DNA of 64,000 nucleotides from an uncultured Rhodospirillaceae bacterium (GTDB lineage Bacteria > Pseudomonadota > Alphaproteobacteria > Rhodospirillales > UBA2165), in contig CAZMHI010000011.1 of the NCBI GenBank assembly GCA_964566055.1, forward strand, positions 25,851 to 89,850. Direction: 5' to 3'. The notes under the pieces were generated by a model. The model saw nothing but the letters and a program-made list of their open reading frames with translations. It searched no databases and had not been told where the DNA came from. Position 1 is the first letter of the stretch. Every line of letters begins with the position of its first letter. A program made the translations under genes and the position numbers. Positions 36,565 to 58,401 of this stretch are shown here, piece by piece.

Positions 36565-36578
36565 TTGATGTGGATCAA
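36565..36578 (-). promoter_or_regulatory. Perfect FNR/CRP-family box TTGAT-GTGG-ATCAA
   Basis: Read directly. Box centre is 61 nt upstream of the ATG at 36510, with a TAATTT hexamer 32 bp downstream of the centre (class II geometry). Confidence 0.6.
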
Positions 36579-36826
36579 ACCTGCAAATTAGAGCTATTCT
36601 GATCTTTGCTGATTTTGGGCCGGTTATTGGACCGAATTTGGCCGATGACCAGAAAGAACAGTCCTGTGGCAATTAAAAAAATGTAGAAATTGTCGATCGC
36701 GTTGCCGGCCCGCCAGGACAGCATGGCATCCAAAGCACCGACAAAGATTAGCGCCACGCCAAACATCCGCGGAATAACACCACGCCTTGGGGTAACTTCC
36801 TGTTCCGTGTTTGACGCTGCCTGCAT
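36575..36826 (-). CDS. Small two-TM membrane protein
   Basis: 83 aa. Two hydrophobic helices (MFGVALIFVGALDAML, FYIFLIATGLFFLVIG). Starts 3 nt after the upstream stop. Confidence 0.5.
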   Translation of the reverse strand: MQAASNTEQEVTPRRGVIPRMFGVALIFVGALDAMLSWRAGNAIDNFYIFLIATGLFFLVIGQIRSNNRPKISKDQNSSNLQV

Positions 36827-36829
36827 TTT

Positions 36830-38353
36830 CTAGCCCTCCCGCTTGGCCGCCGCGTTGCGCGCCCACCAGCCTAAAAGGCCGAGAAGCAGAAGTGCAACAA
36901 TCACGCCGGAAATAATCGGCTTGGTGCTGGTTGGCGGCTTGAGCAACAGCCAGTACCAGGTGGTCAGAGTGTAGCTCCGCGCTTTTTCAGAGTTGCTGCC
37001 ATCCCAGGCGGCAAAAGCGATGGGCGTGAAACGGCCTTCTTCAAATTGAATATCGCTGCCGGTTTCAGCCGTCTTAAGTGCACGCTTAACCACGACCCGC
37101 CAGGAGCCGTTTTTGTAAACGCCTTTTGCCGTCAGGCCGGCTGCTTTGCCATCGCGGGCCTCAAGATTTTCAAGCCCCTGGCCATCGGCGAGTTCAACTT
37201 TAGCCGGCGACTTGGTTGTACCGGCGCTCCATTTCCAGATATTGACCGGCTTGGCGCCGTCACCGGCAACAAAATAGGGTTTCTCTAGACCTTCCGGTGC
37301 TATGACCGGCAACTGAACAGCAACCGCATCTTCAGTCATATTTTCATCAGCGATTTTGGCCGCGGCTTCGTCACCCGGAATACTTTTGGTGCGGTCATCC
37401 CATTCGAGCAAAAAGGCGACTTCTTTGTCGCTATAAAGCGCCTGAGCTGTAATGGTGTCATTGGCCATTTTAAAGAAACGCGGCTTGAGAATGATTTGCG
37501 GCACCATGGCAAAGGTCGTTGGTTGCGCGACCTCCCAAGCTTTGTCATCGGGTCCTGTCGGCAAATCACCTTCTACTTTTTCGGCAATCACCACAGTATT
37601 TTCAGCGCGCACGGTACGTTTTGTTTTGGCCAAAGACTGCACATAGTTGGCAACATGCCAGCGTTCTTCGATCGAAAGTTTTTTGGCGCTTTTCTCATCG
37701 GCAAATGTCGGCATTTGTGTGCCGGGAATACCGACGGTCACACGGGCAAAGATGTCTTTTGGATCATTACTGCCTCTGAAAGTCCAAGGCTTGGTCAGAT
37801 TGCGCGGCCAGGTGCGCGCACCTGCATCGTCTTTTAAGCGCTTAACTGCATCACCTTTACCGTCCTCACCATGGCACTCGGAACAACGCTCCTTGTCATG
37901 GAATAGCTTTTTACCTTGAGCGATACTTTCCGGCGAGGTGGCAACTTGGGTGCCATAATCCAATTGTTCTTCCGGCTTTTCGTCTTCAAGCTCAGCAAAC
38001 ATTTTGAGATAGAGCACGAGGTCCCACATTTCCTGCTCTTTGAGGATATCGGCCCAGCCCGGCATGGCAGTGCCCGGCATACCATCTTTAATCATGCGGT
38101 AGATATCATCATCATTCGGTACCGGATCTTCTTCACCGGTGGTTTTGATCTTATAACCGGCTTCGGTGAAATCACGCGGTGGCGGGTTGAGACGCTCGGC
38201 GCCAGGGCCGTCACCATCACCTTCTTCGCCGTGACACATCAGACAGCGTTTTTCATAAATTTTCTTACCGTTCTCGGCATTACCCGGGGCGGCAATTACT
38301 GGTGAGCCCAGCAATATGGTCAGAAGCGCAGTTAAGGAAATTAACAATTTCAT
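36830..38353 (-). CDS. Di-haem cytochrome c fused to an EB_dh/DOMON-like domain and a C-terminal TM anchor (module 1)
   Basis: Signal peptide. CLMCH and CSECH. C-terminal half has EB_dh-like motifs (DAVAVQLP, VNIWKW, NGSWRVVVKRAL, FAAWDGSN). Terminal TM helix IISGVIVALLLLGLLGWW. Confidence 0.75.
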   Translation of the reverse strand: MKLLISLTALLTILLGSPVIAAPGNAENGKKIYEKRCLMCHGEEGDGDGPGAERLNPPPRDFTEAGYKIKTTGEEDPVPNDDDIYRMIKDGMPGTAMPGWADILKEQEMWDLVLYLKMFAELEDEKPEEQLDYGTQVATSPESIAQGKKLFHDKERCSECHGEDGKGDAVKRLKDDAGARTWPRNLTKPWTFRGSNDPKDIFARVTVGIPGTQMPTFADEKSAKKLSIEERWHVANYVQSLAKTKRTVRAENTVVIAEKVEGDLPTGPDDKAWEVAQPTTFAMVPQIILKPRFFKMANDTITAQALYSDKEVAFLLEWDDRTKSIPGDEAAAKIADENMTEDAVAVQLPVIAPEGLEKPYFVAGDGAKPVNIWKWSAGTTKSPAKVELADGQGLENLEARDGKAAGLTAKGVYKNGSWRVVVKRALKTAETGSDIQFEEGRFTPIAFAAWDGSNSEKARSYTLTTWYWLLLKPPTSTKPIISGVIVALLLLGLLGWWARNAAAKREG

Positions 38354-38365
38354 CAGTTCAGCCCC

Positions 38366-39133
38366 CTACTCGTGTCCAAAACTTCGGGGCTGATACCCGG
38401 TGTAGTCATAAAGAAATAAGATAACCTGCCAGATTTCCTCTTCGCTGAGAAAGTCCTGCCAGATCGGCATGGAAGAGATCCAAGGCGCGGCCTCTTTCGG
38501 CAGGCCCGGCCCGCCGGTAGCAATACGCCAGAACAGGTAAGATTCCTGGAGCTGTGCGATGGTGCCGACATCCTGGAAATTGGCCGGTGTCGGATTGAGC
38601 CCAGCCGCATAAGGGCCTTTGCCATCGAGCTTGTCACCGTGACAGAAATGACAGTTCTGGATATAGACCTTGGCGCCCTCGGCGACGTGTTCTTTGAATT
38701 TTTTGGGGTCTTCTTTCTCCAGCTTTCGCAGAGGATTCTCAAGCTTGATGACATCGTAGCGTTTACCATAGGCCTTCATCGAGGTTGGCGGCGCTGGATG
38801 AATGGTGCGGAGCTCAACCGGTGCTTCAAAGCTTAAGCTGGTTTTCTCGTACGTGTACCAGCCCGCCAAGACAGGCAGGATGATGAACACGACGTTGCGG
38901 ATCATCTTTTTATTGGGGTCTTCGACCAAGGCTTTGATCGGCCCGACAAGTTCGCGGGTACTTTCTTCGGTCGCGGTGAACACCATAAAGACGCCGGCCA
39001 CCACAAAGAACATATACATCGTCAGCAGGCTCGACGGGATAACGTGGTCAAGCATAACATCGAAGACCAGGACGAAGCCGTAATAGACAATGGCCAGAAC
39101 GAGAACGGCTTGAAGTAACTTAGGTATTTTCAT
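38366..39133 (-). CDS. Three-TM-anchored mono-haem cytochrome c (module 1)
   Basis: 255 aa with a strong SD (GGGAGGGG). Three N-terminal TM helices, then CHFCHGDKLDGKGP in a class I cytochrome c domain. Confidence 0.75.
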   Translation of the reverse strand: MKIPKLLQAVLVLAIVYYGFVLVFDVMLDHVIPSSLLTMYMFFVVAGVFMVFTATEESTRELVGPIKALVEDPNKKMIRNVVFIILPVLAGWYTYEKTSLSFEAPVELRTIHPAPPTSMKAYGKRYDVIKLENPLRKLEKEDPKKFKEHVAEGAKVYIQNCHFCHGDKLDGKGPYAAGLNPTPANFQDVGTIAQLQESYLFWRIATGGPGLPKEAAPWISSMPIWQDFLSEEEIWQVILFLYDYTGYQPRSFGHE

Positions 39134-39145
39134 CTCAGCCCCTCC

Positions 39146-39958
39146 CTATTTCAACTTGGCCAAATAATCGACCAGCATTTCAAGCTCGCTGGCATAGAGC
39201 TGAGTGCCGTAATCTTTCGGCATTAAGTCTTTTTCATAGCCTTTGGTCAGTTCTGCATTCGGATCAAGGATCGATATTCTGATATGAGCGGCGGAACGAA
39301 GTGCGCCGATTTTTGTCAGATCAGGTCCTTGCTCGCCTTCATCTTCACCGACTTTGTGACAAGCGCCGCAGCCGACCTCTGAAAGGATATCTTCAACGCT
39401 TTCATACGGTTTGCGTTGCTCCTCTTCCTCGTCATCCGCAGCATCACCGGCGTCTTCCGGAATTTCGACCGTAACCTCGACACCACCCAATTGTTGGAGG
39501 TAAGCGGTAACAGCGGCAAGCTCGACTTCGTTGAGACCGATACTGCCGGTTGAAGCATCCGGCATCGGGCTGACCGCATCATTGGTGCCTTTTTTACCGA
39601 AGCCAGCGACCACAAAAGCCGACGGTTTGACCATCGATTCCATGACGTAGCTTTCAACATCTGTTGCTTCGCCCTTATAGCGTGGGTCTTTGAGACGCGC
39701 TGCGGTGACGGCCGCTGTTTTTTCAAGCAATGGGGCACGGCCGCCAAGCGCATTGTGGCAGAGCGTACAGGTGCCCTTGCCTTTATATAATTTTTCACCG
39801 AGCGCCAGGAATTGATCCATGGTCAAAGAGCTGAGATCGACTTTCTCCTCGGTCGGCGGTGGCGCGGGCTCGATCCGGGGAATACCGAAATTAGCAAATC
39901 CGGCAAATAGGCCAACGACCAGCACGCTAAAGAAAGCGACTTTCAGGAAATTTTTCAT
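39146..39958 (-). CDS. Membrane-anchored di-haem cytochrome c (module 1)
   Basis: 270 aa with an N-terminal anchor and CTLCH and CGACH motifs. ATGA overlap with the upstream CydA-like gene. Confidence 0.75.
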   Translation of the reverse strand: MKNFLKVAFFSVLVVGLFAGFANFGIPRIEPAPPPTEEKVDLSSLTMDQFLALGEKLYKGKGTCTLCHNALGGRAPLLEKTAAVTAARLKDPRYKGEATDVESYVMESMVKPSAFVVAGFGKKGTNDAVSPMPDASTGSIGLNEVELAAVTAYLQQLGGVEVTVEIPEDAGDAADDEEEEQRKPYESVEDILSEVGCGACHKVGEDEGEQGPDLTKIGALRSAAHIRISILDPNAELTKGYEKDLMPKDYGTQLYASELEMLVDYLAKLK

Positions 39959-41850
39959 CCCTTACCTCCTGCCGCGGCGATATTGTCGACCGCTTCAGGC
40001 GCCCAGTAATTCTGAGGCTCGGTTTTCTTGGCGCTGATCTGGCTGAGCCAGAAAACAAAGATCACCATGGAGAGGAAAATAATCGTGCCGATGGAAACCA
40101 CATTGGCGGCAAAGCCCATGGTCGGCGTGAAGGCATCGGCGGAATTATCCCGCATGATATCGACGACATGCCAGTGTTGGCGGATACCGGAGCGGATATA
40201 CCCCATCAAACCCATCAGCCAGGTGAAGGAGACAGCCAGCAGGAACAGCGCATATTGCGAACGTTCGGGTACACGGCCCCATTTCAGCGGCGCCACTTCC
40301 TTGGCATTTTTATACATAAAGCTGTCGATGAGAATACTGATGACAATTATCACCAGGGTCGTACAAACTTGCGGGATTGAAGCGGCGATCTTATAGACCG
40401 TATTGGTGAAGTAGCCGTAATAGGTACCAAGAATGAAAATATTAATGACGCCGGTGACAAATAGCGCCACTTGCGCGGCATTACCGGCATTGACCCAGCT
40501 TACCGTCGCAACTTTATTGGCGCGCCGGTAGAACAGAAAGCTGACAAAGGTCGCGAGGATCATTAAATTCACAGCCGTGTTCTTGGCCGGCATAATACCA
40601 AAGGGTCCAAGATATTTGTGATAGGGCCCGCCAAGCGCTTTCAGCTCTTCGTTGGTCAACACCAGGGTATGCGGTGTGAACCAGACCAAGAAGGCACCGA
40701 CAATCACAATGGCGATATATTTAATATATTTGTAATAGCGCACCGCGCCATCGCTCCGGCCCATGCAGCACCAGAGATAATAGTTTGCTGACAGGAACAG
40801 TGCGCCGATCAGCACGGCCTGAATGATAAATAGCCAGGCGAAAATACCACCCATCAAAGTGATGCCCATTTGCTGGCTGAAAGCATAAATTTCTGTGGTC
40901 AGGTAATAGCCGGCAAAGGGTAGAGGCAGCAGCGCCGAAATAGCGATAAAGTTGGCGGTATAGCCCATCCAATCGTAATGCGCGCGGTCTTCGGCTCGGC
41001 TTGAGCTTAAGAACTTGAAAGCTGCATAGGCGCCGACGATGGAGCCGCCAAAGGCCACATTGGCCACCACCCGATGCAAATTGATCGGGTTCCAGAGATG
41101 GTTCTGAATGGCCGGCCAGATATCACCGGCAAAGACACCTGCCGCATCGACGCCTTCCGGGCTCATCATGAATGTCAGCCAGGAATTGGCGAGCAGCATC
41201 AGCATGGTGCCGACAGCATTGAGCAACAGGCCGATCGTCAGATGGACCCATTTGCGGTCGCCACCCTGCAGCCAGTGCCAGCCATAATAATAGAGATAGA
41301 GGCAGGCGCTTTCGGCGAAGAACAGTACGGCATACCAGAACATACTGTCTTTAAAGATGGTCGCGAGGTAGCTCCAGAGATCGGGATAGAACAGCATCAG
41401 GGAGAACGACAACAAGCCGCCCAAGATAGCCGTCAGGGAATAGGCCGTAATACTGACTTTAATAAACTCATAAGCCATATTGTCGTAGCGCCGGTCGCGC
41501 GTGCGCATACCAATAGCTTCAATAATGAAAACAAAAATCGGCACAGCAAGGACAAAGGCCGCAAACCAGAGATGCAATTGGGCCACCAGCCAGATAACAA
41601 CCCGGCTGTTGACGCCTTTGACGGTCGGATAGCTGGCGAGCGTGGTTTGAGGGGCTGGACCATATGGCGAGGTGGCTTCTGTATCACTGTCAGTGTTTTC
41701 AGCTGCCGGTTCTGCCGCTTGCTCAGCAGCCTGCACCGCTACATCAAAAAATTCACCGCTAAAATTTACCGGTGACAGAAATAACATCAAAGCCAGGAAA
41801 GCTATACCGGCTATTTTAAGTCCCCACCTGTTTTCATTTTTAAACTTCAT
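39955..41850 (-). CDS. Cytochrome bd subunit I (CydA)-like polytopic membrane protein lacking a Q-loop (module 1)
   Basis: CydA-like helix 1 (AQLHLWFAAFVLAVPIFVFIIEAIG), ANSWLTFMMSPEGVD, and NLHRVVANVAFGG. There is only a short loop where canonical CydA has the Q-loop. ATG at 41850; the track TTG start is at 41868. Confidence 0.7.
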   Translation of the reverse strand: MKFKNENRWGLKIAGIAFLALMLFLSPVNFSGEFFDVAVQAAEQAAEPAAENTDSDTEATSPYGPAPQTTLASYPTVKGVNSRVVIWLVAQLHLWFAAFVLAVPIFVFIIEAIGMRTRDRRYDNMAYEFIKVSITAYSLTAILGGLLSFSLMLFYPDLWSYLATIFKDSMFWYAVLFFAESACLYLYYYGWHWLQGGDRKWVHLTIGLLLNAVGTMLMLLANSWLTFMMSPEGVDAAGVFAGDIWPAIQNHLWNPINLHRVVANVAFGGSIVGAYAAFKFLSSSRAEDRAHYDWMGYTANFIAISALLPLPFAGYYLTTEIYAFSQQMGITLMGGIFAWLFIIQAVLIGALFLSANYYLWCCMGRSDGAVRYYKYIKYIAIVIVGAFLVWFTPHTLVLTNEELKALGGPYHKYLGPFGIMPAKNTAVNLMILATFVSFLFYRRANKVATVSWVNAGNAAQVALFVTGVINIFILGTYYGYFTNTVYKIAASIPQVCTTLVIIVISILIDSFMYKNAKEVAPLKWGRVPERSQYALFLLAVSFTWLMGLMGYIRSGIRQHWHVVDIMRDNSADAFTPTMGFAANVVSIGTIIFLSMVIFVFWLSQISAKKTEPQNYWAPEAVDNIAAAGGKG

Positions 41851-41872
41851 TCTGCTACGCGCCTTCAAATCT

Positions 41873-41989
41873 TTACTGGTGGTAGAACAGGGATATGCCC
41901 TGCAAATTCATGAGGCCCCAATCGAGCACGAAAAAGCCGACGCCGCAGATTGCGAGCGAAACAATAAATGGTACAAGATAGTCTTTCAC
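41873..41989 (-). CDS. Candidate 38-aa single-TM mini-protein
   Basis: My own translation: GTG start preceded by GGGAGAA, product (M)KDYLVPFIVSLAICGVGFFVLDWGLMNLQGISLFYHQ. Immediately upstream of the CydA-like gene. Confidence 0.4.
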   Translation of the reverse strand: MKDYLVPFIVSLAICGVGFFVLDWGLMNLQGISLFYHQ

Positions 41990-42014
41990 CGGTGGTTCTC
42001 CCTCTCTGCCCGGC

Positions 42015-42122
42015 CTAAAACAATACGACCCAAAAGGCCGCACAAGTGGCGATCAGCACGGCGATAAACAGCGCCGGGCCAAACCAGGTAGCTTCGTTAT
42101 TTTGTGGAGCCTCTGTATTCAT
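42015..42122 (-). CDS. Candidate 35-aa single-TM mini-protein
   Basis: My own translation: ATG at 42122, product MNTEAPQNNEATWFGPALFIAVLIATCAAFWVVLF. Weak SD. Confidence 0.35.
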   Translation of the reverse strand: MNTEAPQNNEATWFGPALFIAVLIATCAAFWVVLF

Positions 42123-42318
42123 GTTTTTAAACCGTCTCAATTACTTGTTTTTTTGCTGGCATTGAACAACCTGGATTCGAAGGATAAAATGGGGCCAGAA
42201 ACCAGTGAGAAAGAAGCATGATCAATTTTAAAAATTTACGGCCCATTGACTGGGTCATCTTTGTCGGCGCCGCCGTTAATTTCGTGGTGATCGTGCTGAT
42301 CCTCGCTTTTTTTGTTTT

Positions 42319-42708
42319 CTAGCCTGCCTTACCTTTACACTTACACAGACCACGCAAATACTTGATCAAGCCATTGGCATCGGCGTCTGAGATCGTCTTA
42401 CCCCAGGGCGGCATCAATGGTGATTTACTTTGCGACGGGCCGCCATCCATGACGATGCCGCGGATATAATTATCTGTGAGCTTGCTCATCTCTTTAGCAT
42501 TGGTGAAATCCCGCGGTGTAACCGGGAAATCCTTGGTCACATTGGGGCCCTTGCCTTTGCCTTCGAGGCCATGACATTGGGCGCAGTAGAATCTAAAAGT
42601 TTCTTCGGCTCCCGCTGCTTTTGCAGTTTCAGTGTTAATAAACCAGGCCAAGCCAAATACGGCGGCCAGGAGAGAAATTTTGCTTAGTTTTTTCATTGCT
42701 CTAGCCAT
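42319..42708 (-). CDS. Periplasmic mono-haem cytochrome c
   Basis: 129 aa. Signal peptide and CAQCHGLEGKGKGP. Alternative ATG at 42696 with better SD spacing. Confidence 0.8.
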   Translation of the reverse strand: MARAMKKLSKISLLAAVFGLAWFINTETAKAAGAEETFRFYCAQCHGLEGKGKGPNVTKDFPVTPRDFTNAKEMSKLTDNYIRGIVMDGGPSQSKSPLMPPWGKTISDADANGLIKYLRGLCKCKGKAG

Positions 42709-42710
42709 CC

Positions 42711-43373
42711 TTATTTGAGGTTGCTGACATGTTTAGCGACGTTTTTGAGATCCTTATCCTTCAAAATACCCGCGAAGGTCGGCATCGCTTTGAACGGTTT
42801 GAAGTGAGTGGGATTTTTCAAATAGGCGTAAATCCAATCGGGGTTGAGCCGTTTGCCGACGCCAACCAAGGTTGGGCCGCTGAAGCCACCGGTAATCTTG
42901 CCTTTTTTGCTGGCCGATTGATGACAGCCGGTGCAGGGCATTTTCTTGGTGAAAATCTTTTTACCTTTAAGACTTTTCTTTGGCTTAATAACACCCGCTT
43001 TAACTTCGCCGGTGGTTTTACTCATCAGGAAGTCAGCAACATTGGCGGCATCGCCACCGGATAATTTCGGATGGTCGCCCGCGTTCTTTTTGGTCAGCGA
43101 GTTATAAGCCAAATGGCGGATCGGTTTTGGGTCCTGGAGCCAGCCCTTGAGCCAGGCTGCCTGGAACTTAGATCCTGCATACCAGAGTTCAGGGCCTTTT
43201 TTGGCCATTTGGTCGGCAATGCTTTTTTCTTTAGCCGGACCCTCGGTATAGTGGCAACCGGTACATTTTTGAGCTTCGAAGGCAGCTTTACCAGCGCCTG
43301 CGTCAGCATGTGCCGCACCAGCGACAAAGCCGAAGAGGCTCATTGCTGCAATTGCAGATATGATAATTTTCAT
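42711..43373 (-). CDS. Periplasmic di-haem cytochrome c
   Basis: 220 aa. Signal peptide and two CTGCH motifs. Confidence 0.8.
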   Translation of the reverse strand: MKIIISAIAAMSLFGFVAGAAHADAGAGKAAFEAQKCTGCHYTEGPAKEKSIADQMAKKGPELWYAGSKFQAAWLKGWLQDPKPIRHLAYNSLTKKNAGDHPKLSGGDAANVADFLMSKTTGEVKAGVIKPKKSLKGKKIFTKKMPCTGCHQSASKKGKITGGFSGPTLVGVGKRLNPDWIYAYLKNPTHFKPFKAMPTFAGILKDKDLKNVAKHVSNLK

Positions 43374-43410
43374 TTTCCTACTCCTTTTTTTTGCTGGCCA
43401 AGCGGCTTAT

Positions 43411-46040: not shown

Positions 46041-46055
46041 CTTTGTTCATCCGCC

Positions 46056-50140: not shown

Positions 50141-50154
50141 TTGATCTAGATCAG
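50141..50154 (-). promoter_or_regulatory. Near-perfect FNR/CRP-family box TTGAT-CTAG-ATCAG
   Basis: 9/10 match to TTGAT-N4-ATCAA. Lies in the 120-nt gap upstream of the cupredoxin gene, with a TAATTT hexamer 33 bp downstream of the centre. Confidence 0.5.
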
Positions 50155-52520: not shown

Positions 52521-52522
52521 CG

Positions 52523-55195
52523 TTAGATGATATCCCGCGGTGCGAAGGACATAGTCCGGAAGGTTTTCTTATATGGCGATTCGCCGATCTTCTTAACTTT
52601 TGCGGTACCCATTTTGTAATTGTAGTTACCACTAATCCAATCGACAATCCGTCCCTCCAAAGCATTCGCAGGTTGTTGCGTATGCAGGAAATCCATATAA
52701 AGCATGCCTTTTTTGATATGACGCGTGACCATGGCGACACCGGTAACGGCGGCACGGGTCAGCTCGATATTTCCGGCTTTCATCTGACCTGAGAAGGAAT
52801 AGTCAGAACCTTCAACGCCAAGTATCGTCTCTTTAAGACTTGGTACCCGGTCAGAGTAGACCATCAACATATCACCGTTTTCGATGCCGCGTTTCTTGGC
52901 ATCATCGGGATGGATTTCGACATAGTTGTCAGGCCAGCGTTGAACGATATAAGGCCGGCGGCGGTCATCAAAGCCGGATTGCCAACGTTCATTGGTCCGT
53001 CCTGAAGAACACCACATCTCATCACCGCGCGGTTTCATCCATTCCCAATAATCCGAGAACAGATTCCACGGCGACTTCTGAATGTTGCACTTACCGGTTT
53101 GGCTGTTGAAATGGGTCAACTTCTTGTTGAACACATTGCTGGCCTCCGGACCGGTTGCACTCAGCTTGCGAGTCGTATCATGCAGGCGCTTGGTACCGAC
53201 CAGTTTTCCTTCTTCGGTTAAGAATACAGGTCCCTGGATACCGTTAGTGCCAAACTCCCGCATTTTCTGATGCAAGGTTTTGCCTTCACGTTGGGCGACC
53301 ACTTTGATCTGATGGAAGTCTTTGCGGCTGCCCCGCGAGAAGCGTGACATTTCCTCAGCAACCTCATTGGAGTTTTTCCAATCAAAGCCTTCAAAGCCCA
53401 TCCGTTTGGACAATTGGGCAATGATCCACCAATCCGGTCTCGCTTCGCCCGGTGCATCATAAAATTTCTGATACAGGCGCAAACGGCGTTCGCCATTAGC
53501 CCGCATGAAATCTTCTTCGCCCCAGGTTGCTGCCGGGAAGATGATATCGGCATACCGGTTACCAATCGGATCGACCAGATAAATTTCCTGGTTGATTACG
53601 ACCATACCACCGGAATCAGCGCGTTTTTTCAAGGTATCAATGATATCCTGCTTATCGTAGGACCGAACCTGATTTGGATTGGCGACGGTTAGTTCATGGA
53701 ACCGCTTGGCCAATTGCTGCGAGCCGCACATGGATTGGATCCACGTCGTACCGATGACATGAGCCAAACGGGTGTGACCCGACATGGTGTAGGTATCAGT
53801 ATCCAAGGCGCGACGACGGCGACCTGGCAACTTCATTGGCGATTTGTTACGCGGATATTTACCGCCACGTTGACCACCACGCTGGTGTCCACCGGCCCGG
53901 CCAATAACCTGACCCGGACGGCCACCGGCACCAACGATGATACCAAGAGCGGAAATCGCCTGGGTGTTACCGGTATTGTTCGACCAGTAGAAACCTTTCT
54001 CGATCATGATCGAGGTTTTCGGGCGCTTATTGCCTTTAGGTTTCGCCATCCATTCAGCGGCTTTTTGGATTTTCTTGGCATCAACACCGGAAACTTTAGC
54101 TGCATTGGCAAGTTTGAACTCGTCCTGCTTGAGCAGCCATTTTTTCCAATCTTCATAGCCATTGGTCTGGAACTTGCCCCAGGTCGTCCGCCATTGCCAC
54201 GGTGTATTACGCGTGCCTTGGCCGAAGCCCGAAGATGAGCCCCACTTGTTGTTGACCCAGTTTTTGATCCACTCTTTATCCTGCCAATTATTTTCAGCAA
54301 TGATCCGAGCAATCGCATTAACCACCAAGAGGTCGGTGCCTGGATTTACGTCGAGCCAGAGACCGCCATTCTTTTCAGCATAAGCGACACCGGCAGTTCG
54401 GCGCGGCACCATAAAGATGGCTTTCTGGCCGTTTTGGATACCTTGCATGATCCATTGAGTGAACAAGATGGTCTTGGTCTCATAGGGATCAGTACCGCAA
54501 ATCAGCAATGTTTCGGCGTTCATCCAATCTTCGTAGGCCGGACCGAAGTTATCAAAGCCCGCATCCCGGAAACCAGGTGTAGAGCTCACATCTGATGGCG
54601 TATCATGGAAGGTAAAGTTCGCGGTGTTGACGTGACGCAGCGCGTATTTGGTAATCGCGTAGGTGTTTTCCAGATACTGATAGGAATAGGTTTTAACACC
54701 ATAAGCATTAGCGCCGTGATTATCGATGACATGCTTGCCAACCTCGGCAGCGATATCGAGAGCGAAATCCCACGGTACCGGTTGCAAGATACCGAAAATC
54801 CGCACCATCGGTGATTTCAAACGATCACGTGTCGGTGTCTGCGGATTGTAGACCTTCTGCGCAATACAGCCGCCACGAAGACTTGAATCACCGCCTTTAT
54901 TAACGAACTTTGCGTCTTTATCCGGGATCACTACGACGTGGTGCGGCTTATCATTATGCAGCACGATATTGTGCTGGTTCGGTGCCACCCAAGGACCCAG
55001 CGGATTGACCGGGAAGTCTTCACCAAAAGCGTTTTCGCTCGCCTTGGCGCCGCCTTTGCCATTGCCGGCTACCGGCCAGCGGTAAACTTTAAGACCGCAA
55101 GCGACAATACAATAGTCGCAAGCCGTGGTAATGACCTCAGCTCCCTTAGGAGGAAGAGGGACATTGGTTTCTGGAATGTAATATGGAGTAGCCAT
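52523..55195 (-). CDS. Molybdopterin (bis-PGD) catalytic subunit of the arsenite oxidase AioA / iodate reductase IdrA clade
   Basis: 890 aa. N-terminal C-x2-C-x3-C (TTACDYCIVACGLKVYRWP) as in the AioA 3Fe-4S site, with no own Tat signal. AioA-like segments (VVIPDK, SSLRGG, AYEDW...CGTDPYETKT). Confidence 0.8.
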   Translation of the reverse strand: MATPYYIPETNVPLPPKGAEVITTACDYCIVACGLKVYRWPVAGNGKGGAKASENAFGEDFPVNPLGPWVAPNQHNIVLHNDKPHHVVVIPDKDAKFVNKGGDSSLRGGCIAQKVYNPQTPTRDRLKSPMVRIFGILQPVPWDFALDIAAEVGKHVIDNHGANAYGVKTYSYQYLENTYAITKYALRHVNTANFTFHDTPSDVSSTPGFRDAGFDNFGPAYEDWMNAETLLICGTDPYETKTILFTQWIMQGIQNGQKAIFMVPRRTAGVAYAEKNGGLWLDVNPGTDLLVVNAIARIIAENNWQDKEWIKNWVNNKWGSSSGFGQGTRNTPWQWRTTWGKFQTNGYEDWKKWLLKQDEFKLANAAKVSGVDAKKIQKAAEWMAKPKGNKRPKTSIMIEKGFYWSNNTGNTQAISALGIIVGAGGRPGQVIGRAGGHQRGGQRGGKYPRNKSPMKLPGRRRRALDTDTYTMSGHTRLAHVIGTTWIQSMCGSQQLAKRFHELTVANPNQVRSYDKQDIIDTLKKRADSGGMVVINQEIYLVDPIGNRYADIIFPAATWGEEDFMRANGERRLRLYQKFYDAPGEARPDWWIIAQLSKRMGFEGFDWKNSNEVAEEMSRFSRGSRKDFHQIKVVAQREGKTLHQKMREFGTNGIQGPVFLTEEGKLVGTKRLHDTTRKLSATGPEASNVFNKKLTHFNSQTGKCNIQKSPWNLFSDYWEWMKPRGDEMWCSSGRTNERWQSGFDDRRRPYIVQRWPDNYVEIHPDDAKKRGIENGDMLMVYSDRVPSLKETILGVEGSDYSFSGQMKAGNIELTRAAVTGVAMVTRHIKKGMLYMDFLHTQQPANALEGRIVDWISGNYNYKMGTAKVKKIGESPYKKTFRTMSFAPRDII

Positions 55196-55207
55196 TAGTC
55201 GTCTCTC

Positions 55208-55810
55208 CTAACCTTGTAGATTATCTAAACGGCCATAAATCAGGCCGAATATGGCGACAGCGTAGATATTGTCGCCTTGAATTTCGAGCAGCACCTGTGG
55301 CAGGCTTTGATAGGCCTGACCGGAAATCAGAATACCGTGTCGCGTCAGATCATAGGTCGACAGGTGCAAGTTGCAGGCACCAAGCGATTTGGTATCCCCC
55401 TTATAGGAGCCCGTCATGTCACCGCCCTGATGGGTACAGGTATAATTGAAGGCAACAATGTCCTTATTCGGTCCAATACCGCCACCGGCTTCAACACCAA
55501 GCTTGACGATCATCGATTCTGAATAGGCACCGCTATCGGGATAGCTGAAATCAATCGGCTTATCCGTTTTCAACTGGCTCAGTTTAGCCACCAGCTTGCG
55601 GGGATAAGTTGCGACCATCGCCGGTACCTTGGCCATGCCGGGACCGGCACTGACCATGGCGACTGTCGTAACACCCGAGGCAAACAGGAAGTCACGGCGG
55701 GACATCAGGCATTTGCCATGACCCTTTTCTTTTTTCACCACACTGCCTTTACTCTCAGGAGCCTCAGCGATCTCTGGGGTGATTAGTTCGGTTTTAGTTT
55801 CTTTATTCAT
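55208..55810 (-). CDS. Tat-exported Rieske 2Fe-2S small subunit (AioB/IdrB-like)
   Basis: 200 aa. Twin-arginine motif SRRDFLF. Rieske ligands CTH-(18 aa)-CNLH. Good SD (GGAGTGAGGA). Confidence 0.8.
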   Translation of the reverse strand: MNKETKTELITPEIAEAPESKGSVVKKEKGHGKCLMSRRDFLFASGVTTVAMVSAGPGMAKVPAMVATYPRKLVAKLSQLKTDKPIDFSYPDSGAYSESMIVKLGVEAGGGIGPNKDIVAFNYTCTHQGGDMTGSYKGDTKSLGACNLHLSTYDLTRHGILISGQAYQSLPQVLLEIQGDNIYAVAIFGLIYGRLDNLQG

Positions 55811-55834
55811 GATTTTATCCTCACTCCTAGCCCA

Positions 55835-56953
55835 TTAATCGAGGGGCGCATAAGGTGGAATTTTAGGCGTCGCCATTTTGATCTCATCACCGCTCAGAGA
55901 TTCGAGAAAAGCCACGAGGTCTTCCTTTTCTTCATCCGAGAGATTCAGAGGTTTCAAAAGCTTGGTCTTGGTTGCGAACTCGTTCTTGCCGCCACCATCG
56001 TTGTAGAAATCAACCAGCTCTTCCAAATCAAAAAACGATCCGTTGTGCATATAAGGCGCTGTGTAAGCGATATAGCGCAGCGGCGGTGTCCGGAATTTAC
56101 CCTTATCGGCTTTTTCTTTAGTCCGATAATAGAGGCCAGCATCATCCTTGATCGAACGATACATTTTTTCCGTCGTGCCTTTGCCATATTGCTGATAGCG
56201 GAAGGTAATTTGCGCCAAGCCGCGCGTCAGCCATTCTTCAGCCCGCGGCACACCGAGATTGTAATATTTCTGGTCGGTGAGTTGCGGTCCGTTATGACAT
56301 TCAATGCAATTGGCTTTGCCTTTGAACAATTTTAGGCCGCGTACCTGTTGTTCGGAGAGCGCTTTTTTGTCGCCACGCATATATTTGTCAAACGGCGTAT
56401 TGTTATGGATCAAAGTCCGTTCAAACGCCGCCATGGCACGCCAGACATTGTTTACCCGCGGCCAGCGGTCGCCGAAGATTTCACGGAAGGCTTTGACATA
56501 TTCCGGCACGAAAGCTAAGCGAGCTTCGATGACGTCGCGTTCACCGTTACCGGAAAGCGCGCCCAAGGCCGCAGATGGCGCTTGGTTTTCAAGCGATTTC
56601 GCCGAGCCCGTCCAGAACAACTTGCCGAGATAGGCGGAATTGACCACGGTTTGGCTGTTGCGCCAGTGGATGGCGCCGGGATAGCCGCGTGAAATCGGAT
56701 CATTAAAGCCCCAGCCTTGGGTCGGAGAATGACAATCGGCACAGGATACCGACGCATCGCCACCAATCCGGGGATCGAAGAACAGTAGTTTACCGAGAGC
56801 AGCTTTGGCGGCGGTCTGCGGGTTGTCCGCCGGGATCGGCGGTTTGCCTAAGGCAGCCAAAGGTGCGTTTTTATCAGCCATGGCGCTACCGGCGAAGCCG
56901 ATCAATGCCAAACCTACAATGAGTGCAAAAGTAATTTTTTTCATGGTTTTCAT
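55835..56953 (-). CDS. Di-haem bacterial cytochrome c peroxidase (IdrP-like)
   Basis: Signal peptide after the ATG at 56953 (AGGAG SD). CADCH and CIECH in CCP/MauG spacing. The track ORF extension to 57031 overlaps the upstream gene. Confidence 0.8.
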   Translation of the reverse strand: MKTMKKITFALIVGLALIGFAGSAMADKNAPLAALGKPPIPADNPQTAAKAALGKLLFFDPRIGGDASVSCADCHSPTQGWGFNDPISRGYPGAIHWRNSQTVVNSAYLGKLFWTGSAKSLENQAPSAALGALSGNGERDVIEARLAFVPEYVKAFREIFGDRWPRVNNVWRAMAAFERTLIHNNTPFDKYMRGDKKALSEQQVRGLKLFKGKANCIECHNGPQLTDQKYYNLGVPRAEEWLTRGLAQITFRYQQYGKGTTEKMYRSIKDDAGLYYRTKEKADKGKFRTPPLRYIAYTAPYMHNGSFFDLEELVDFYNDGGGKNEFATKTKLLKPLNLSDEEKEDLVAFLESLSGDEIKMATPKIPPYAPLD

Positions 56954-56963
56954 CTCACGGCTC

Positions 56964-58091
56964 CTAATTGCGCTGCTTGAGCCAATTTTTGATGGGTTTA
57001 TAATTGACGTCGATTTTATCTTTCCAGACATGCTGGGCGCCGGTTAACGGCTTACCAGACAGCGATTCGAGGAAAGCAACCAAATTGGAGCGCTCTTCTT
57101 TACTGAGGCCCAAAGGCTTGATCCGGGGATCTTTATTGACGTCGTTGCCACCGCCATTGTTGTAGAACTCAACAACACCTTTCAGAGTTTTGATCATGCC
57201 GTTATGCATGTAAGGTGCAGTTTGCTTAAGTTCCCTCAAGGTCGGGGTCATGAACTTGCCGATATCTGAGCCATCGGCTTTGTGCGTGCGCACATGAGCG
57301 CCAACGTCACGGCGGATATTCATGATATTTTCTATGCCCATAAAGAGGCCAAAAGCCACATAGGTCATATGACGCAAAGGTTTCCGCCAAATATCAGGAT
57401 TGTTCGGCACGCCGGTGTTGTACGGCTGATCATCGGTAAAGCGATTACCGGAATGACAAGAGACACAGCCGGCTTTGCCTTTAAACAATTCAAAGCCACG
57501 CTTAGCGGCATCGGTCATTTTACCTGCATCGAAAGCTGAACCACGGGAGGTTAAGGTTTTCAGATATTCCGGAATGGCTTTACGAATTGAACCGTTTGAG
57601 GGTTCGCCATAGCCGGCATCTTTAAACATCTTCACATAGATCGGATCTTGTTTGACGCGTTCCTGCATCAACCGCATATCCATGTTCATGTTATAAGTCT
57701 CGGTAATAGATTCACGCGTCACATCGTTCAGGTTGGTACCTAAACGGCCATCGTGAAACCATGCTGCCCGCTGCGCCGTATTGATAAGTGTCGGCGTATT
57801 ACGAAAGCCGGCACTGCCGGGATAGGCTTTTGATAACTCAAGCCCGTCAGCAAAACCTTTTGAGGGAATATGGCAGGTGGAACAGCTGATAGCAGCATCT
57901 CCAGAAAGGCGCGGATCAAAAAACAGCCGCTTACCCAAAGCTGCTTTTTTAGCGTCGACTTTCGGCGCCTTAACGGGGCCAAACCCGTTAGCCGAAGCAG
58001 ATGATGCATTAACAATAAGACCGAGCGTAAAAACGCTGGCCGCGAAAACACTTAGTAGTTTTCCAATTGAATGGATACGTCGATAGATCAT
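56964..58091 (-). CDS. Di-haem bacterial cytochrome c peroxidase (IdrP-like), paralogue of 55835..56953
   Basis: ATG at 58091 with a GGAGG SD. Signal peptide. CSTCH and CVSCH. First gene of the cluster. Confidence 0.8.
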   Translation of the reverse strand: MIYRRIHSIGKLLSVFAASVFTLGLIVNASSASANGFGPVKAPKVDAKKAALGKRLFFDPRLSGDAAISCSTCHIPSKGFADGLELSKAYPGSAGFRNTPTLINTAQRAAWFHDGRLGTNLNDVTRESITETYNMNMDMRLMQERVKQDPIYVKMFKDAGYGEPSNGSIRKAIPEYLKTLTSRGSAFDAGKMTDAAKRGFELFKGKAGCVSCHSGNRFTDDQPYNTGVPNNPDIWRKPLRHMTYVAFGLFMGIENIMNIRRDVGAHVRTHKADGSDIGKFMTPTLRELKQTAPYMHNGMIKTLKGVVEFYNNGGGNDVNKDPRIKPLGLSKEERSNLVAFLESLSGKPLTGAQHVWKDKIDVNYKPIKNWLKQRN

Positions 58092-58387
58092 AGACGGTTT
58101 CCTCCGTCGTGCGAAACACACTGAAGTTTTGTGGGAAATTTAAAAGTTTGAGAAATAGGGTTGGCAAACACAAAAAAACCGCCGGTTAATTTTCTTTTTT
58201 CACCAGCGATTGGAAAGAAATAGGAATCGGATATGGATATAGACTTATCCGTATAGCAGCCGCGATTATGGCAACTCTCTTCCACTTATTTATCCCTCCC
58301 CATAAATCAACTACCGGCCCGCAGAAATTTTCTACTAACGGTCCGGTATTCTTTGAATAGGTATAATTAAATTGTGGGAAATGGGCA

Positions 58388-58401
58388 TTGATCCAAATCA
58401 A
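58388..58401 (-). promoter_or_regulatory. Perfect FNR/CRP-family box TTGAT-CCAA-ATCAA
   Basis: Read directly. Located in the 377-nt intergenic region upstream of the first peroxidase gene, about 300 nt from its ATG. Confidence 0.5.

What the first reader, a model, noticed from the sequence alone, without database searches (positions are those of the whole stretch)
36565..58401. Three FNR/CRP-family boxes partition the cluster into co-regulated units
Seen: TTGATCCAAATCAA (58388-58401, perfect), TTGATCTAGATCAG (50141-50154, 9/10) and TTGATGTGGATCAA (36565-36578, perfect). The first lies in the cluster's upstream region and the other two in internal minus-strand gaps of 64 and 120 nt; the 196-nt gap at 42123-42318 has no box. 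The second and third boxes have an identical TAATTT hexamer 32-33 bp downstream of the box centre, which is the class II FNR promoter geometry. The first box has only a weak TATACC at that spacing, and it would imply a leader of about 260 nt. The third box overlaps the stop codon of the preceding small membrane gene. Established: TTGAT-N4-ATCAA is the consensus for FNR/Anr/FnrL-type regulators that activate anaerobic or microoxic respiration genes. I found no such box upstream of nirB or the other operons I inspected. Inference: the whole system is induced by oxygen limitation.
Basis: partly seen in the sequence, partly recalled or inferred. Interest (0 to 1): 0.6.

Follow-up and report, generated by a model that had tools for sequence, protein, structure and literature searches.

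The report
Low-oxygen promoter boxes in respiratory cluster
Three short palindromes in a marine bacterium's 27-kb respiratory gene cluster are very probably real docking sites for an oxygen-sensing FNR-type activator; this is an ordinary kind of switch, but it gives a candidate mechanism for why iodate-reductase-like genes turn on when oxygen runs low.

Summary
All three boxes, their -10 hexamers, the gap sizes and the stop-codon overlap are at the stated coordinates.

**They are not chance.**
- The genome (an uncultured marine Rhodospirillaceae MAG) has 46 intergenic TTGAY-N4-RTCAA sites, against about 3 expected.
- A TAnnnT hexamer starts exactly 29.5 nt from the box centre at 16 of 52 box-gene pairs. 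This is class II geometry.
- A matrix trained without the window's own sites ranks the boxes 23rd, 35th and 80th genome-wide.
- All three boxes are kept in related genera while their flanks diverge.

**Regulators.** The genome encodes two FNR paralogues with FnrP-like cysteines (13, 16, 25, 115) and the E--SR recognition helix.

**What the promoters precede.**
- Box 1: an idr-like unit (two peroxidases, Rieske, Aio/Idr-clade molybdoenzyme, HEAT protein).
- Box 2: the first bd-like/cytochrome c module.
- Box 3: a USP-PCP_red/radical-SAM/SCO1 maturation unit.

- The second bd-like module has no box.
- The 196-nt "gap" holds a conserved antisense 34-aa gene.
- Box 1 is followed by a 262-nt leader with a terminator-like hairpin.

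Oxygen as the signal is inferred, not shown; no usable RNA data exist.

Verdict: new member of a known kind, moderate interest.

The parts
58388..58401 (-). Box 1, TTGATTTGGATCAA on the gene strand. Perfect FNR-type palindrome, 68 nt downstream of the ComA-like gene's stop.
   Evidence: The matrix trained on other sites gives 19.1 bits, rank 23 in the genome. Kept in G007, G003 (2 mismatches), G013 and G023.
58360..58365 (-). Candidate -10 hexamer of the box 1 promoter (TATACC). It starts 29.5 nt from the box centre. The predicted transcription start is near 58353.
   Evidence: The same position reads TATAGC in G007 and TATAGT in G003.
58092..58353 (-). Predicted 262-nt leader between the box 1 promoter and the first peroxidase gene.
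   Evidence: No Rfam family matches it. Its sequence is conserved only within the genus. Leaders of 150-260 nt also occur in other lineages.
58172..58211 (-). Terminator-like hairpin in the leader: 10-bp stem, 15-nt A-rich loop, then U7.
   Evidence: -13.3 kcal/mol. Hairpins with a U-run occupy the equivalent place in G007, G003, G013 and L047, with different sequences.
50190..58091 (-). Unit 1: two di-haem CCP/MauG-type peroxidases (56964-58091, 55835-57031), a TAT Rieske subunit (55208-55810), an Aio/Idr-clade molybdopterin subunit (52523-55195) and a 776-aa HEAT-repeat protein (50190-52520).
   Evidence: Pfam and NCBIfam. The same gene order is found in 80 alphaproteobacterial loci.
50141..50154 (-). 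Box 2, CTGATCTAGATCAA on the gene strand. One mismatch, at position 1.
   Evidence: 13.2 bits, rank 80. The pattern nTGAY-N4-ATCAA is kept in G005, G007, G003, G013, G033 and G023. It is absent from most of the wider loci.
50112..50117 (-). -10 hexamer TAATTT of the box 2 promoter. It starts 30.5 nt from the box centre. The predicted start is near 50105, giving a leader of about 36 nt.
   Evidence: The position is conserved in relatives.
42319..50069 (-). Unit 2: CarboxypepD_reg-like protein, bd-I-like 730-aa membrane protein, four c-type cytochrome genes and one cytochrome c + EB_dh protein.
   Evidence: Pfam.
42218..42322 (+). Conserved antisense 34-aa membrane-like ORF inside the '196-nt gap'. 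It has its own sigma-70-like promoter, TTGAAC-17-TAAAAT, at 42162-42190.
36575..42122 (-). Block without a box: two small membrane ORFs, a second bd-I-like protein (637 aa), two cytochromes c, a cytochrome c + EB_dh protein and an 83-aa membrane protein.
   Evidence: Pfam. The small ORFs are conserved. No site of 6 bits or more lies upstream.
36565..36578 (-). Box 3, TTGATCCACATCAA on the gene strand. Perfect, and it overlaps the TGA stop of the 83-aa ORF.
   Evidence: 17.7 bits, rank 35. TTGAY-N4-RTCAA is kept in G005, G007, G003, G013, G033 and G023.
36537..36542 (-). -10 hexamer TAATTT of the box 3 promoter. It starts 29.5 nt from the box centre. The predicted start is near 36530, giving a leader of about 20 nt.
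   Evidence: G033 and G023 have TAAAAC at the same 29.5-nt offset.
31038..36510 (-). Unit 3: USP x2 + PCP_red-repeat protein (34357-36510), radical SAM/SPASM/PCP_red protein (33021-34424), amine-oxidase-type FAD protein (31634-33154) and SCO1/SenC (31038-31634).
   Evidence: Pfam.

Best explanation
The three palindromes are binding sites for an FNR-type dimeric activator. The best candidate is one or both of the genome's two Cys-bearing FNR paralogues; a Cys-less FtrB/FixK-like paralogue may act further down the cascade.

Each box is centred about 41.5-42.5 bp upstream of a predicted transcription start, which is class II geometry. At such promoters the bound regulator contacts RNA polymerase and substitutes for a -35 element.

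When oxygen is low, the regulator's [4Fe-4S] cluster is intact and it dimerises and binds. Three promoters in series then fire:
- P1 sits in front of the idr-like peroxidase/Rieske/molybdoenzyme/HEAT genes.
- P2 sits in front of the first bd-like/cytochrome c module.
- P3 sits in front of the USP-PCP_red/radical-SAM/FAD/SCO1 maturation genes.

No intergenic terminators separate the units. P2 and P3 therefore most likely boost the distal parts of a long read-through transcript rather than isolate them.

Shown here: the sites exist, they belong to a strongly enriched and positionally constrained genomic motif, they are conserved, and matching regulators exist. Inferred: binding, activation, and oxygen as the signal.
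For: **1. Genome statistics.**
- 25 perfect boxes against 4.4 expected. 16 are intergenic against 2.7 expected from an order-3 Markov model of intergenic DNA.
- TTGAY-N4-RTCAA occurs 46 times in intergenic DNA and 20 times in coding DNA, although only 10.7% of the genome is intergenic.

**2. Geometry.**
- TAnnnT starts at +29.5 from the box centre in 16 of 52 box-gene pairs, and in 3 or fewer at every other offset.
- The same peak appears for perfect and for one-mismatch boxes.
- Box 3 sits at 29.5, box 2 at 30.5, and box 1 at 29.5 with a weak hexamer.

**3. Matrix trained without the window's sites.** Scores are 19.1, 17.7 and 13.2 bits, at ranks 23, 35 and 80.

**4. Phylogenetic footprints.** The boxes hold their position in three genera whose proteins are 65-90% identical, while spacers and flanks diverge.

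**5. Regulators.**
- Two paralogues, 63% identical to each other, carry Cys13/16/25/115 and the helix PE(S/T)(M/V)SR.
- They align to the Aliivibrio FNR cluster cysteines C20, C23 and C122 and to E-x-x-S-R.
- Paracoccus FnrP uses Cys14/17/25/113 (PMC4771820).
- The orthologue is present in all 10 relatives that have the cluster.

**6. Regulon content is hypoxia-like.** It includes two hemerythrins, Usp, Hsp20, a CBS-BON protein, multihaem cytochromes, a 2-oxoacid:ferredoxin oxidoreductase, four fumarate-reductase-like flavoproteins, and the FtrB-like regulator itself.

**7. Wider loci.**
- TTGA-N6-TCAA lies within 350 nt upstream of the first peroxidase gene in 21 of 65 loci, against a background of 0.025 per 350 nt.
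- TAnnnT follows at 29.5-30.5 in 15 of 32 boxes.
- Only 1 box falls in 889 kb of cluster coding sequence.

**8. Experiment in a relative.** idr genes of Roseovarius azorensis are induced 5.7-12-fold by static, O2-limited growth (PMC11445184).
Against: - There is no transcript evidence. A single 212-nt metatranscriptome contig maps inside the molybdoenzyme gene, and no start sites can be read.
- Box 1 has a poor -10 (TATACC). It is followed by a 262-nt leader with a terminator-like hairpin, so it may not by itself decide expression.
- Box 2 lacks the first T.
- In G013, G033 and G023 the left half of box 2 overlaps the last codons of the HEAT gene, so part of its conservation there could be a coding constraint.
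- Both FNR paralogues score far below the NCBIfam cut-offs for FnrL and Fnr (81 against 300 bits; 60-65 against 228 bits).
- Their third cysteine is spaced x8, not x5 (E. coli type) or x7 (FnrP).
- Three regulators share the E--SR helix, so the sites cannot be assigned to one of them.
- Gene calls used for the genome statistics were crude (longest ORFs).
Confidence: 0.72

Rival explanations
1. The boxes are real, but the regulator that occupies them is not a direct O2 sensor. It could be the Cys-less FtrB/FixK-like paralogue, or a paralogue that responds to NO, redox state or another cue. Oxygen would then act only indirectly, or not at all.
For: The genome has a third E--SR regulator without N-terminal cysteines. 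It matches FtrB at 141 bits, below the cut-off of 211. Its own promoter carries TTGACGTAGATCAA with TAAGAT at 29.5 nt, which is the layout of an FNR-to-FixK-type cascade. All three regulators would recognise the same palindrome.
Against: That regulator gene is itself behind an FNR-type box, so even this route would normally start from the Cys-bearing sensors. The regulon is hypoxia-flavoured. idr genes in a relative respond to O2 limitation (PMC11445184).
Confidence: 0.18
2. Box 1 mainly drives a short leader transcript that ends at the hairpin and U-run. Expression of the idr-like genes would then be decided by conditional read-through (attenuation, or a second signal such as iodate), with FNR only permissive.
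For: A hairpin plus U6-7 lies 75-130 nt upstream of the first gene in G000, G007, G003, G013 and L047. The stems differ in sequence but sit in the same place. I found no conserved alternative promoter downstream of it. In Roseovarius azorensis, iodate adds 8- to 100-fold induction on top of low O2 (PMC11445184).
Against: The G000 loop is 15 nt, and the simple terminator scan did not call the hairpin. No Rfam family matches the leader. The whole leader does not fold unusually well (z = -1.5). The leader is not conserved outside the genus at sequence level. Many other lineages have the box only 50-77 nt from the start codon, with no room for such an element.
Confidence: 0.15
3. The boxes are chance palindromes, or remnants without a regulatory role.
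For: Box 2 has a mismatch. About 47 one-mismatch intergenic boxes are expected by chance genome-wide. Box 1 has a weak -10.
Against: About 0.004 perfect boxes are expected in the roughly 730 nt of intergenic DNA in the cluster, and two are seen. All three have a -10-like hexamer at the genome's preferred offset. All three are conserved across genera. The same supercluster carries such boxes at gene junctions in dozens of other genomes and almost never inside genes.
Confidence: 0.03

Closest known systems
Class II FNR-dependent promoters of Escherichia coli (consensus TTGAT-N4-ATCAA centred near -41.5). The description of these promoters is from my own knowledge.
   Same: The palindrome is the same. 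The inferred centre-to-start distance is the same: the -10 hexamer starts 29.5 nt from the box centre. No -35 element is evident. The regulator has the E--SR recognition helix and four candidate cluster cysteines.
   Different: This genome's motif tolerates C at position 5 and G at position 10 (TTGAY-N4-RTCAA), as FixK/FnrL-type sites do. The regulators are distant: 54-57 bits to Aliivibrio FNR, and far below the NCBIfam Fnr cut-off. The third cysteine is spaced x8.
FnrP, FnrL and FixK regulons of Alphaproteobacteria (Paracoccus denitrificans FnrP, PMC4771820; Rhizobium FnrN-controlled small heat-shock protein, PMC11784457)
   Same: The Cys pattern 13/16/25/115 closely matches FnrP's 14/17/25/113. 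The regulon holds Hsp20, Usp, cytochromes and a second-tier Crp/Fnr regulator.
   Different: The targets here include an idr-like molybdoenzyme, bd-like/cytochrome c modules and anaerobic aromatic/acyl-CoA enzymes. I did not look for the classical ccoNOQP or hemN targets. No member of this regulon has been tested.
idrABP1P2 iodate-reductase cluster (Pseudomonas sp. SCT, Denitromonas sp. IR-12, PMC8692401) and its induction by O2 limitation and iodate in Roseovarius azorensis (PMC11445184)
   Same: An AioA-related molybdopterin subunit with the 3Fe-4S Rieske_3 domain, a TAT Rieske subunit and two adjacent di-haem peroxidases. Low-oxygen induction is what an FNR box would produce.
   Different: The gene order here is P-P-B-A, followed by a HEAT protein and fused to two bd-like modules and a maturation unit. 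Iodate reduction is untested for this clade member. The cited papers describe no FNR site in the passages searched: 'FNR' does not occur in PMC11445184 and occurs twice in PMC8692401, once in a passage about nitrate reductase and once in a reference title.

Membership tests
FNR/FixK-type operator (TTGAT-N4-ATCAA) | Sequence matches the 10 specified positions of the palindrome. | tested here: met
   Boxes 1 and 3 match 10 of 10 positions. Box 2 matches 9 of 10.
FNR/FixK-type operator (TTGAT-N4-ATCAA) | The motif is over-represented in non-coding DNA of the same genome, which indicates a regulon. | tested here: met
   16 perfect intergenic boxes against 2.7 expected. TTGAY-N4-RTCAA occurs 46 times in intergenic and 20 times in coding DNA. 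A matrix trained without the window's sites ranks the boxes 23rd, 35th and 80th.
FNR/FixK-type operator (TTGAT-N4-ATCAA) | Class II placement: box centre about 41.5 bp upstream of the start, so the -10 hexamer begins about 29.5 nt from the centre. | tested here: met
   The genome-wide TAnnnT peak is at +29.5 (16 of 52). Box 3 is at 29.5 and box 2 at 30.5. Box 1 is at 29.5 but with TATACC. The starts themselves are predicted, not mapped.
FNR/FixK-type operator (TTGAT-N4-ATCAA) | The site is conserved in orthologous regulatory regions. | tested here: met
   Box 3 is kept in 6 of 6 relatives and box 2 in 6 of 8. Box 1 is kept in 4 of 5 relatives whose upstream DNA is available.
FNR/FixK-type operator (TTGAT-N4-ATCAA) | The regulator binds, and transcription depends on the regulator and on O2. 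| not testable with these tools
   Only one 212-nt RNA contig maps to the cluster. No cultured strain is available.
FNR [4Fe-4S] oxygen-sensor subfamily of Crp/Fnr regulators | Three N-terminal cysteines plus one central cysteine that ligate the cluster. | tested here: met
   Both paralogues have Cys13, 16, 25 and 115. C13, C16 and C115 align with C20, C23 and C122 of Aliivibrio FNR. The spacing is C-x2-C-x8-C, against x7 in FnrP.
FNR [4Fe-4S] oxygen-sensor subfamily of Crp/Fnr regulators | E--SR DNA-recognition helix, as opposed to the RE---R helix of CRP. | tested here: met
   The helices read PESMSR and PETVSR, aligned to ETISR of FNR. A fourth paralogue has the CRP-like RETVAR.
FNR [4Fe-4S] oxygen-sensor subfamily of Crp/Fnr regulators | Score above the curated NCBIfam cut-off for FnrL or Fnr. 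| tested here: not met
   The paralogues score 81 and 71 bits against 300 for FnrL, and 60 and 65 bits against 228 for Fnr. They are distant members, so I call them FNR-type, not FnrL or Fnr orthologues.
idr (iodate reductase) gene cluster | Aio/Idr-clade molybdopterin subunit plus Rieske subunit. | tested here: met
   Pfam finds Rieske_3, Molybdopterin and Molydop_binding domains. TIGR02693 scores 408 bits (cut-off 359). TIGR02694 scores 118 bits (cut-off 96).
idr (iodate reductase) gene cluster | Two di-haem cytochrome c peroxidase genes adjacent to the AB genes. This is the criterion used in PMC8692401 to separate Idr from Aio. | tested here: met
   Two CCP_MauG genes lie directly upstream. 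The arrangement is conserved in 80 loci.
idr (iodate reductase) gene cluster | IdrA profile score of at least 640 (PMC8692401), and iodate-reducing activity. | not testable with these tools
   That profile is not available here, and no culture exists.

The most novel reading that the evidence does not exclude
The idr-like operon would be controlled by a two-input gate. An FNR-type class II promoter (box 1) reports low oxygen. The 262-nt leader, with its conserved hairpin and U-run, would be a previously undescribed attenuator that reports a second cue, most attractively iodate or a product of its reduction. Together these would reproduce the two separate inductions, by O2 limitation and by iodate, measured for idr genes in Roseovarius azorensis. 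Other lineages would meet the same need with a PAS-wHTH-BTAD regulator gene behind an FNR-type box, or with a sigma-54 promoter.
Probability: 0.1. Interest if true: 0.65.

Novelty: new member of a known kind. Interest (0 to 1): 0.4.

Why it matters
- **Candidate mechanism for idr induction.** Iodate-reductase-like clusters are abundant in oxygen-minimum-zone bacteria. In a cultured relative they are induced by low oxygen, but the idr papers I searched name no regulator or operator: 'FNR' is absent from PMC11445184 and appears only in passing in PMC8692401. These boxes supply a concrete, testable candidate.
- **A functional link.** The same switch sits on the bd-like/cytochrome c modules and on the cofactor-maturation genes. 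That argues these poorly understood parts work together with the molybdoenzyme under micro-oxic conditions.
- **A regulon for an uncultured lineage.** The motif defines a hypoxia regulon of roughly 45 promoters in an uncultured marine Rhodospirillaceae lineage. This can guide the reading of metatranscriptomes.
- **The switch itself is textbook.**

Tried and rejected
- **RNA evidence for start sites.** Two run searches and one lay of four metatranscriptomes gave a single 212-nt contig inside the molybdoenzyme gene. The two runs that hold it look like one data set filed twice. Nothing can be said about start sites.
- **Known RNA element in the leader.** Rfam at E <= 10 gave only noise. A profile search with the leader against 99 related loci found only the same-genus copy and a weak 3'-end match.
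- **Terminators between units.** I found no convincing intergenic terminators between the units, and no conserved sigma-70 promoter close to the first peroxidase gene.
- **A weak box in the 196-nt gap or ahead of the second bd-like module.** Nothing scores 6 bits or more. The conserved GATCAA there is the -35 element of the antisense small gene's promoter.
- **A CRP-type (TGTGA) reading.** Rejected. The half-sites are TTGAT, and three regulators carry E--SR. Only one paralogue is CRP-like.
- **Classical FNR targets (ccoN, hemN).** Not searched for.
- **The experimentally studied Roseovarius azorensis locus.** It could not be fetched, because the one scan of genome contigs was already used.

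Full report
**Observation**

- 58388-58401, perfect.
- 50141-50154, one mismatch at the outermost base.
- 36565-36578, perfect.

Two perfect boxes in 64 kb compare with 0.12 expected; none of 100 shuffles had two. All genes of the cluster lie on the minus strand. In gene orientation the boxes read:
- Box 1: TTGATTTGGATCAA
- Box 2: CTGATCTAGATCAA
- Box 3: TTGATCCACATCAA

The gaps of 64 and 120 nt are as described, and so are both TAATTT hexamers (36537-36542 and 50112-50117), the TATACC after box 1, and the TGA stop inside box 3. From box centre to the first base of the hexamer is 29.5 nt for box 3, 30.5 nt for box 2 and 29.5 nt for box 1.

The first peroxidase gene most likely starts at ATG 58091, which follows GGAGGA, and not at GTG 58121. 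The relative G007 has a stop codon between the two positions. This gives a leader of 262 nt.

**What the cluster is**

Pfam and NCBIfam give the following blocks.
- Block 1:
  - two di-haem CCP/MauG peroxidases;
  - a TAT Rieske protein;
  - a molybdopterin subunit with the 3Fe-4S Rieske_3 domain, which passes the arsenite-oxidase large-subunit cut-off;
  - a 776-aa HEAT protein.
- Block 2: a CarboxypepD_reg-like protein, a bd-I-like membrane protein, and five c-type cytochrome genes, one of them with an EB_dh domain.
- Block 3: a second, paralogous bd-like module.
- Block 4: a USP x2 + PCP_red protein, a radical SAM/SPASM protein, an amine-oxidase-type flavoprotein, and SCO1.

The molybdoenzyme/Rieske/two-peroxidase set meets the synteny criterion that Reyes-Umana et al. 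used to separate iodate reductase (Idr) from arsenite oxidase (PMC8692401). I therefore call it idr-like; its activity is untested.

The organism is an uncultured marine Rhodospirillaceae-type MAG. Its DNA is held by seawater metagenomes.

**Is the motif meaningful in this genome?**

- The 4.48-Mb assembly has 25 perfect boxes against 4.4 expected from base composition.
- With a crude longest-ORF gene call, 16 of the 25 lie in the 10.7% of the genome that is intergenic. An order-3 Markov model of intergenic DNA predicts 2.7.
- Allowing Y at position 5 and R at position 10 gives 46 intergenic and 20 coding sites, with about 3 intergenic expected.
- The promoter geometry is not special to this cluster. 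Over all box-gene pairs, a TAnnnT hexamer starts exactly 29.5 nt from the box centre in 16 of 52 cases, and in at most 3 at any other offset. The same peak appears separately for perfect and for one-mismatch boxes. That offset equals a box centre at -41.5, the class II arrangement.
- A position matrix built from the 44 other intergenic sites scores box 1 at 19.1 bits (rank 23 in the genome), box 3 at 17.7 (rank 35) and box 2 at 13.2 (rank 80).
- At 12 bits or more there are 65 intergenic and 53 coding sites, in spite of the 8-fold larger coding space.

**Regulators**

Four Crp/Fnr proteins are encoded.
- Two are 63% identical paralogues. Both have Cys13, 16, 25 and 115 and the helices PESMSR and PETVSR.
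  - Against Aliivibrio FNR, three of the four cluster cysteines and the E--SR helix align.
  - The pattern is almost that of Paracoccus FnrP, which uses Cys14, 17, 25 and 113 (PMC4771820).
  - They score far below the NCBIfam FnrL and Fnr cut-offs, so they are FNR-type but not orthologues of the named proteins.
- A third, Cys-less, FtrB-like protein also has E--SR. It sits behind its own box with a -10 at 29.5 nt, which suggests a cascade.
- The fourth is CRP-like (RETVAR).
- The first paralogue's orthologue is present in all ten relatives that carry the cluster.

**Regulon content**

Genes behind boxes with correct geometry include:
- two hemerythrins, one next to the fnr gene;
- Usp, Hsp20 and a CBS-BON protein;
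- multihaem cytochromes and a cupredoxin-like protein;
- a 2-oxoacid:ferredoxin oxidoreductase;
- four fumarate-reductase-like flavoproteins;
- an OYE-type enoyl reductase;
- two further molybdoenzymes;
- a nitrate/nitrite-sensing chemoreceptor.

This looks like the hypoxia stimulons known for FixK/FnrL-type regulators; that comparison rests on my own knowledge. A microaerobically induced Rhizobium small heat-shock protein turned up in an FNR search (PMC11784457).

**Conservation**

The supercluster is syntenic in relatives of the same genus (G003, G005, G007) and of other genera of the family (G013, G025, G023, G033, G015). The table gives each box in gene orientation.

| Genome | Box 1 | Box 2 | Box 3 |
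|---|---|---|---|
| G000 | TTGATTTGGATCAA | CTGATCTAGATCAA | TTGATCCACATCAA |
| G005 | contig ends | CTGATCTAGATCAA | TTGATCCACATCAA |
| G007 | TTGATTTAGGTCAA | CTGATCTAGATCAA | TTGATCCACGTCAA |
| G003 | TTGATCTGTGTTAA | ATGATCTAGATCAA | TTGATCCGCGTCAA |
| G013 | TTGACGCACGTCAA | ATGACATAGATCAA | TTGATCAAGATCAA |
| G033 | none (sigma-54 promoter) | ATGACCTAGATCAA | TTGACAGGGGTCAA |
| G023 | TTGATTTTGATCAA | ATGACCTAGATCAA | TTGACAGGGATCAA |

- **Box 3.** In G033 and G023 the surrounding sequence is unrelated to that of G000, but TAAAAC again starts 29.5 nt from the centre.
- **Box 2.** The right half-site and the following GG are invariant. A TA-rich hexamer stays at the same offset.
- **Box 2, caveat.** In the three more distant genomes the left half overlaps the last codons and the stop of the HEAT gene. 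That part of the conservation is therefore not independent of coding.
- **Box 1.** The -10 reads TATAGC in G007 and TATAGT in G003.
- **Box 1 in G033.** There it is replaced by TGGCACGGAACTTGCT, a sigma-54 promoter, behind an NtrC-type regulator gene.

**Wider view**

Eighty loci from many alphaproteobacterial groups encode the same molybdoenzyme at 77-97% identity with the same core gene order.
- A TTGA-N6-TCAA box lies within 350 nt upstream of the first peroxidase gene in 21 of 65 loci. The background is 0.025 per 350 nt.
- Several Ruegeria species carry TTAAY-N4-ATCAA about 57 nt upstream of the approximate start codon instead.
- TAnnnT follows at 29.5-30.5 nt in 15 of 32 such boxes, and almost nowhere else.
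- Box 2 and box 3 are confined to the window's own family.
- The other common architecture runs bd-like module, then idr genes, then HEAT, and onwards. It has its own set of boxes:
  - ahead of the bd-like module, 11 of 14 loci;
  - between that module and the peroxidases, 9 of 12 loci;
  - between the molybdoenzyme and HEAT genes, 18 of 75 loci.
- Only one TTGAY-N4-RTCAA falls inside 889 kb of cluster coding sequence.
- Several FNR-type promoters per supercluster is therefore a recurrent design whose positions move between lineages.
- Several loci without a box at the peroxidase gene have a core box about 1.7-2.6 kb upstream instead. In the two I examined, that box precedes a PAS-wHTH-BTAD regulator gene.

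**Corrections to the partition idea**

- **The 196-nt gap is not empty.**
  - It carries a 34-aa membrane-like ORF on the plus strand (42218-42322).
  - The ORF is conserved at 67-100% in eight relatives and always runs opposite to the cluster.
  - It has a conserved TTGAAC/TTGATC-17-TAnnnT promoter.
- **The second bd-like module has no FNR site.** It begins with two conserved small membrane ORFs and has no site of 6 bits or more upstream. Either it depends on read-through from P2 across the antisense gene, or it has an unrecognised promoter.
- **No convincing terminators lie between blocks**.
- **Box 1's leader contains a hairpin plus U-run.**
  - It has a 10-bp stem followed by U7 (58172-58211, -13.3 kcal/mol).
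  - Hairpins with a U-run sit at the equivalent place in G007, G003, G013 and L047, with different stem sequences.
  - No Rfam family matches the leader, and it is not conserved beyond the genus.
  - It may be an attenuator. I could not test this.

**Signal**

That oxygen limitation is the inducer rests on four things:
- the FnrP-like cysteines;
- the regulon content;
- the oxygen-minimum-zone origin suggested by the names of related MAGs (Saanich Inlet, Arabian Sea);
- published data that static growth induces idr genes 5.7-12-fold in Roseovarius azorensis, with iodate as a second inducer (PMC11445184).

PMC11445184 never mentions FNR. PMC8692401 mentions it only in a passage about nitrate reductase and in a reference title. 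No transcript data for this organism allow a direct test.

**Verdict**

This is a new, well-supported instance of a textbook regulatory device. Its value lies in giving a candidate regulator for idr-like clusters and in tying the bd-like and maturation modules to the same low-oxygen programme.

Noticed in passing
window 42218-42322 (+), promoter-like 42162-42190 (+): A 34-aa membrane-like ORF (MINFKNLRPIDWVIFVGAAVNFVVIVLILAFFVF) is encoded antisense to the otherwise co-directional cluster. It overlaps the stop of the cytochrome c gene 42319-42708. It is conserved at 67-100% in eight relatives, always in the opposite orientation, with a conserved -35/-10 pair. A weakly similar small ORF lies co-directionally after the CarboxypepD_reg-like gene in other cluster architectures.
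   Followed up: partly
window 58172-58211 (-), within leader 58092-58353: A terminator-like hairpin (10-bp stem, 15-nt A-rich loop, U7) lies between box 1 and the first gene. Hairpins with a U-run occupy the same position in G007, G003, G013 and L047, with different stem sequences. No Rfam family matches. It is a possible attenuator.
   Followed up: partly
L035/L049 (G033) about 130 nt upstream of the first peroxidase gene; also L064 and L106: In these loci the FNR-type box is replaced by a sigma-54 promoter (TGGCACGGAACTTGCT, TGGCATGGAAATTGCT, TGGCATGTCCATTGCA). In G033 it lies next to the 3' end of an NtrC-type regulator gene. The same operon has been rewired.
   Followed up: no
L065 5231 and 5504-6613; L053 5320 and 5406-6575; similar core boxes 1.7-2.6 kb upstream of the peroxidase gene in L048, L057, L063, L068, L104, L107: Several loci that lack a box directly at the peroxidase gene have an FNR-type box further upstream. 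In L065 and L053 that box precedes a regulator gene (Trans_reg_C plus BTAD; L053 also has a PAS domain) lying just upstream of the idr-like genes. This suggests an FNR-to-specific-activator cascade. The intervening genes in the other six loci were not checked.
   Followed up: partly
80 loci (e.g. L081, L083, L091, L098, L101, L103, L111, L121): In the architecture 'bd-like module, then idr genes, then HEAT...', three TTGAY-N4-RTCAA boxes recur. They lie ahead of the bd-like module, between the EB_dh protein and the first peroxidase, and in the gap between the molybdoenzyme and HEAT genes. The multi-box design is general, but the positions differ from this window.
   Followed up: partly
genome contig C47, 26.6-30.8 kb (boxes at 26669, 28661, 30375, 30791): Four boxes cluster around the fnr paralogue (29582-30316, minus strand). 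They flank a formate/nitrite transporter, an amino-acid permease, a hemerythrin and a CBS-BON protein. The fnr gene itself has TTGACGTTGGTCAA upstream, so it is probably autoregulated.
   Followed up: partly
window 50120-50133 (-): An inverted repeat, GTTTCA-TT-TGAAAC, lies between box 2 and its -10 hexamer. It is kept in the same-genus genomes (GTTTCA-AT-TGAAAC in G007). It could be a second operator, or just recent shared ancestry.
   Followed up: no
window 36575-36640 (-): The 83-aa membrane protein has a frame-shifted, longer C-terminus than its orthologues, which align only to about residue 65-76. This is why its stop codon falls inside box 3 in this genome only.
   Followed up: partly
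window 58088-58285 (-): A 65-aa ORF with a GTG start follows a strong GGGAGG in the leader. The GGGAGG...GTG is kept in G007 and G003, and the G000/G007 indels are multiples of three. The peptide is poorly conserved and the ORF runs through the hairpin, so it is probably not a gene.
   Followed up: partly
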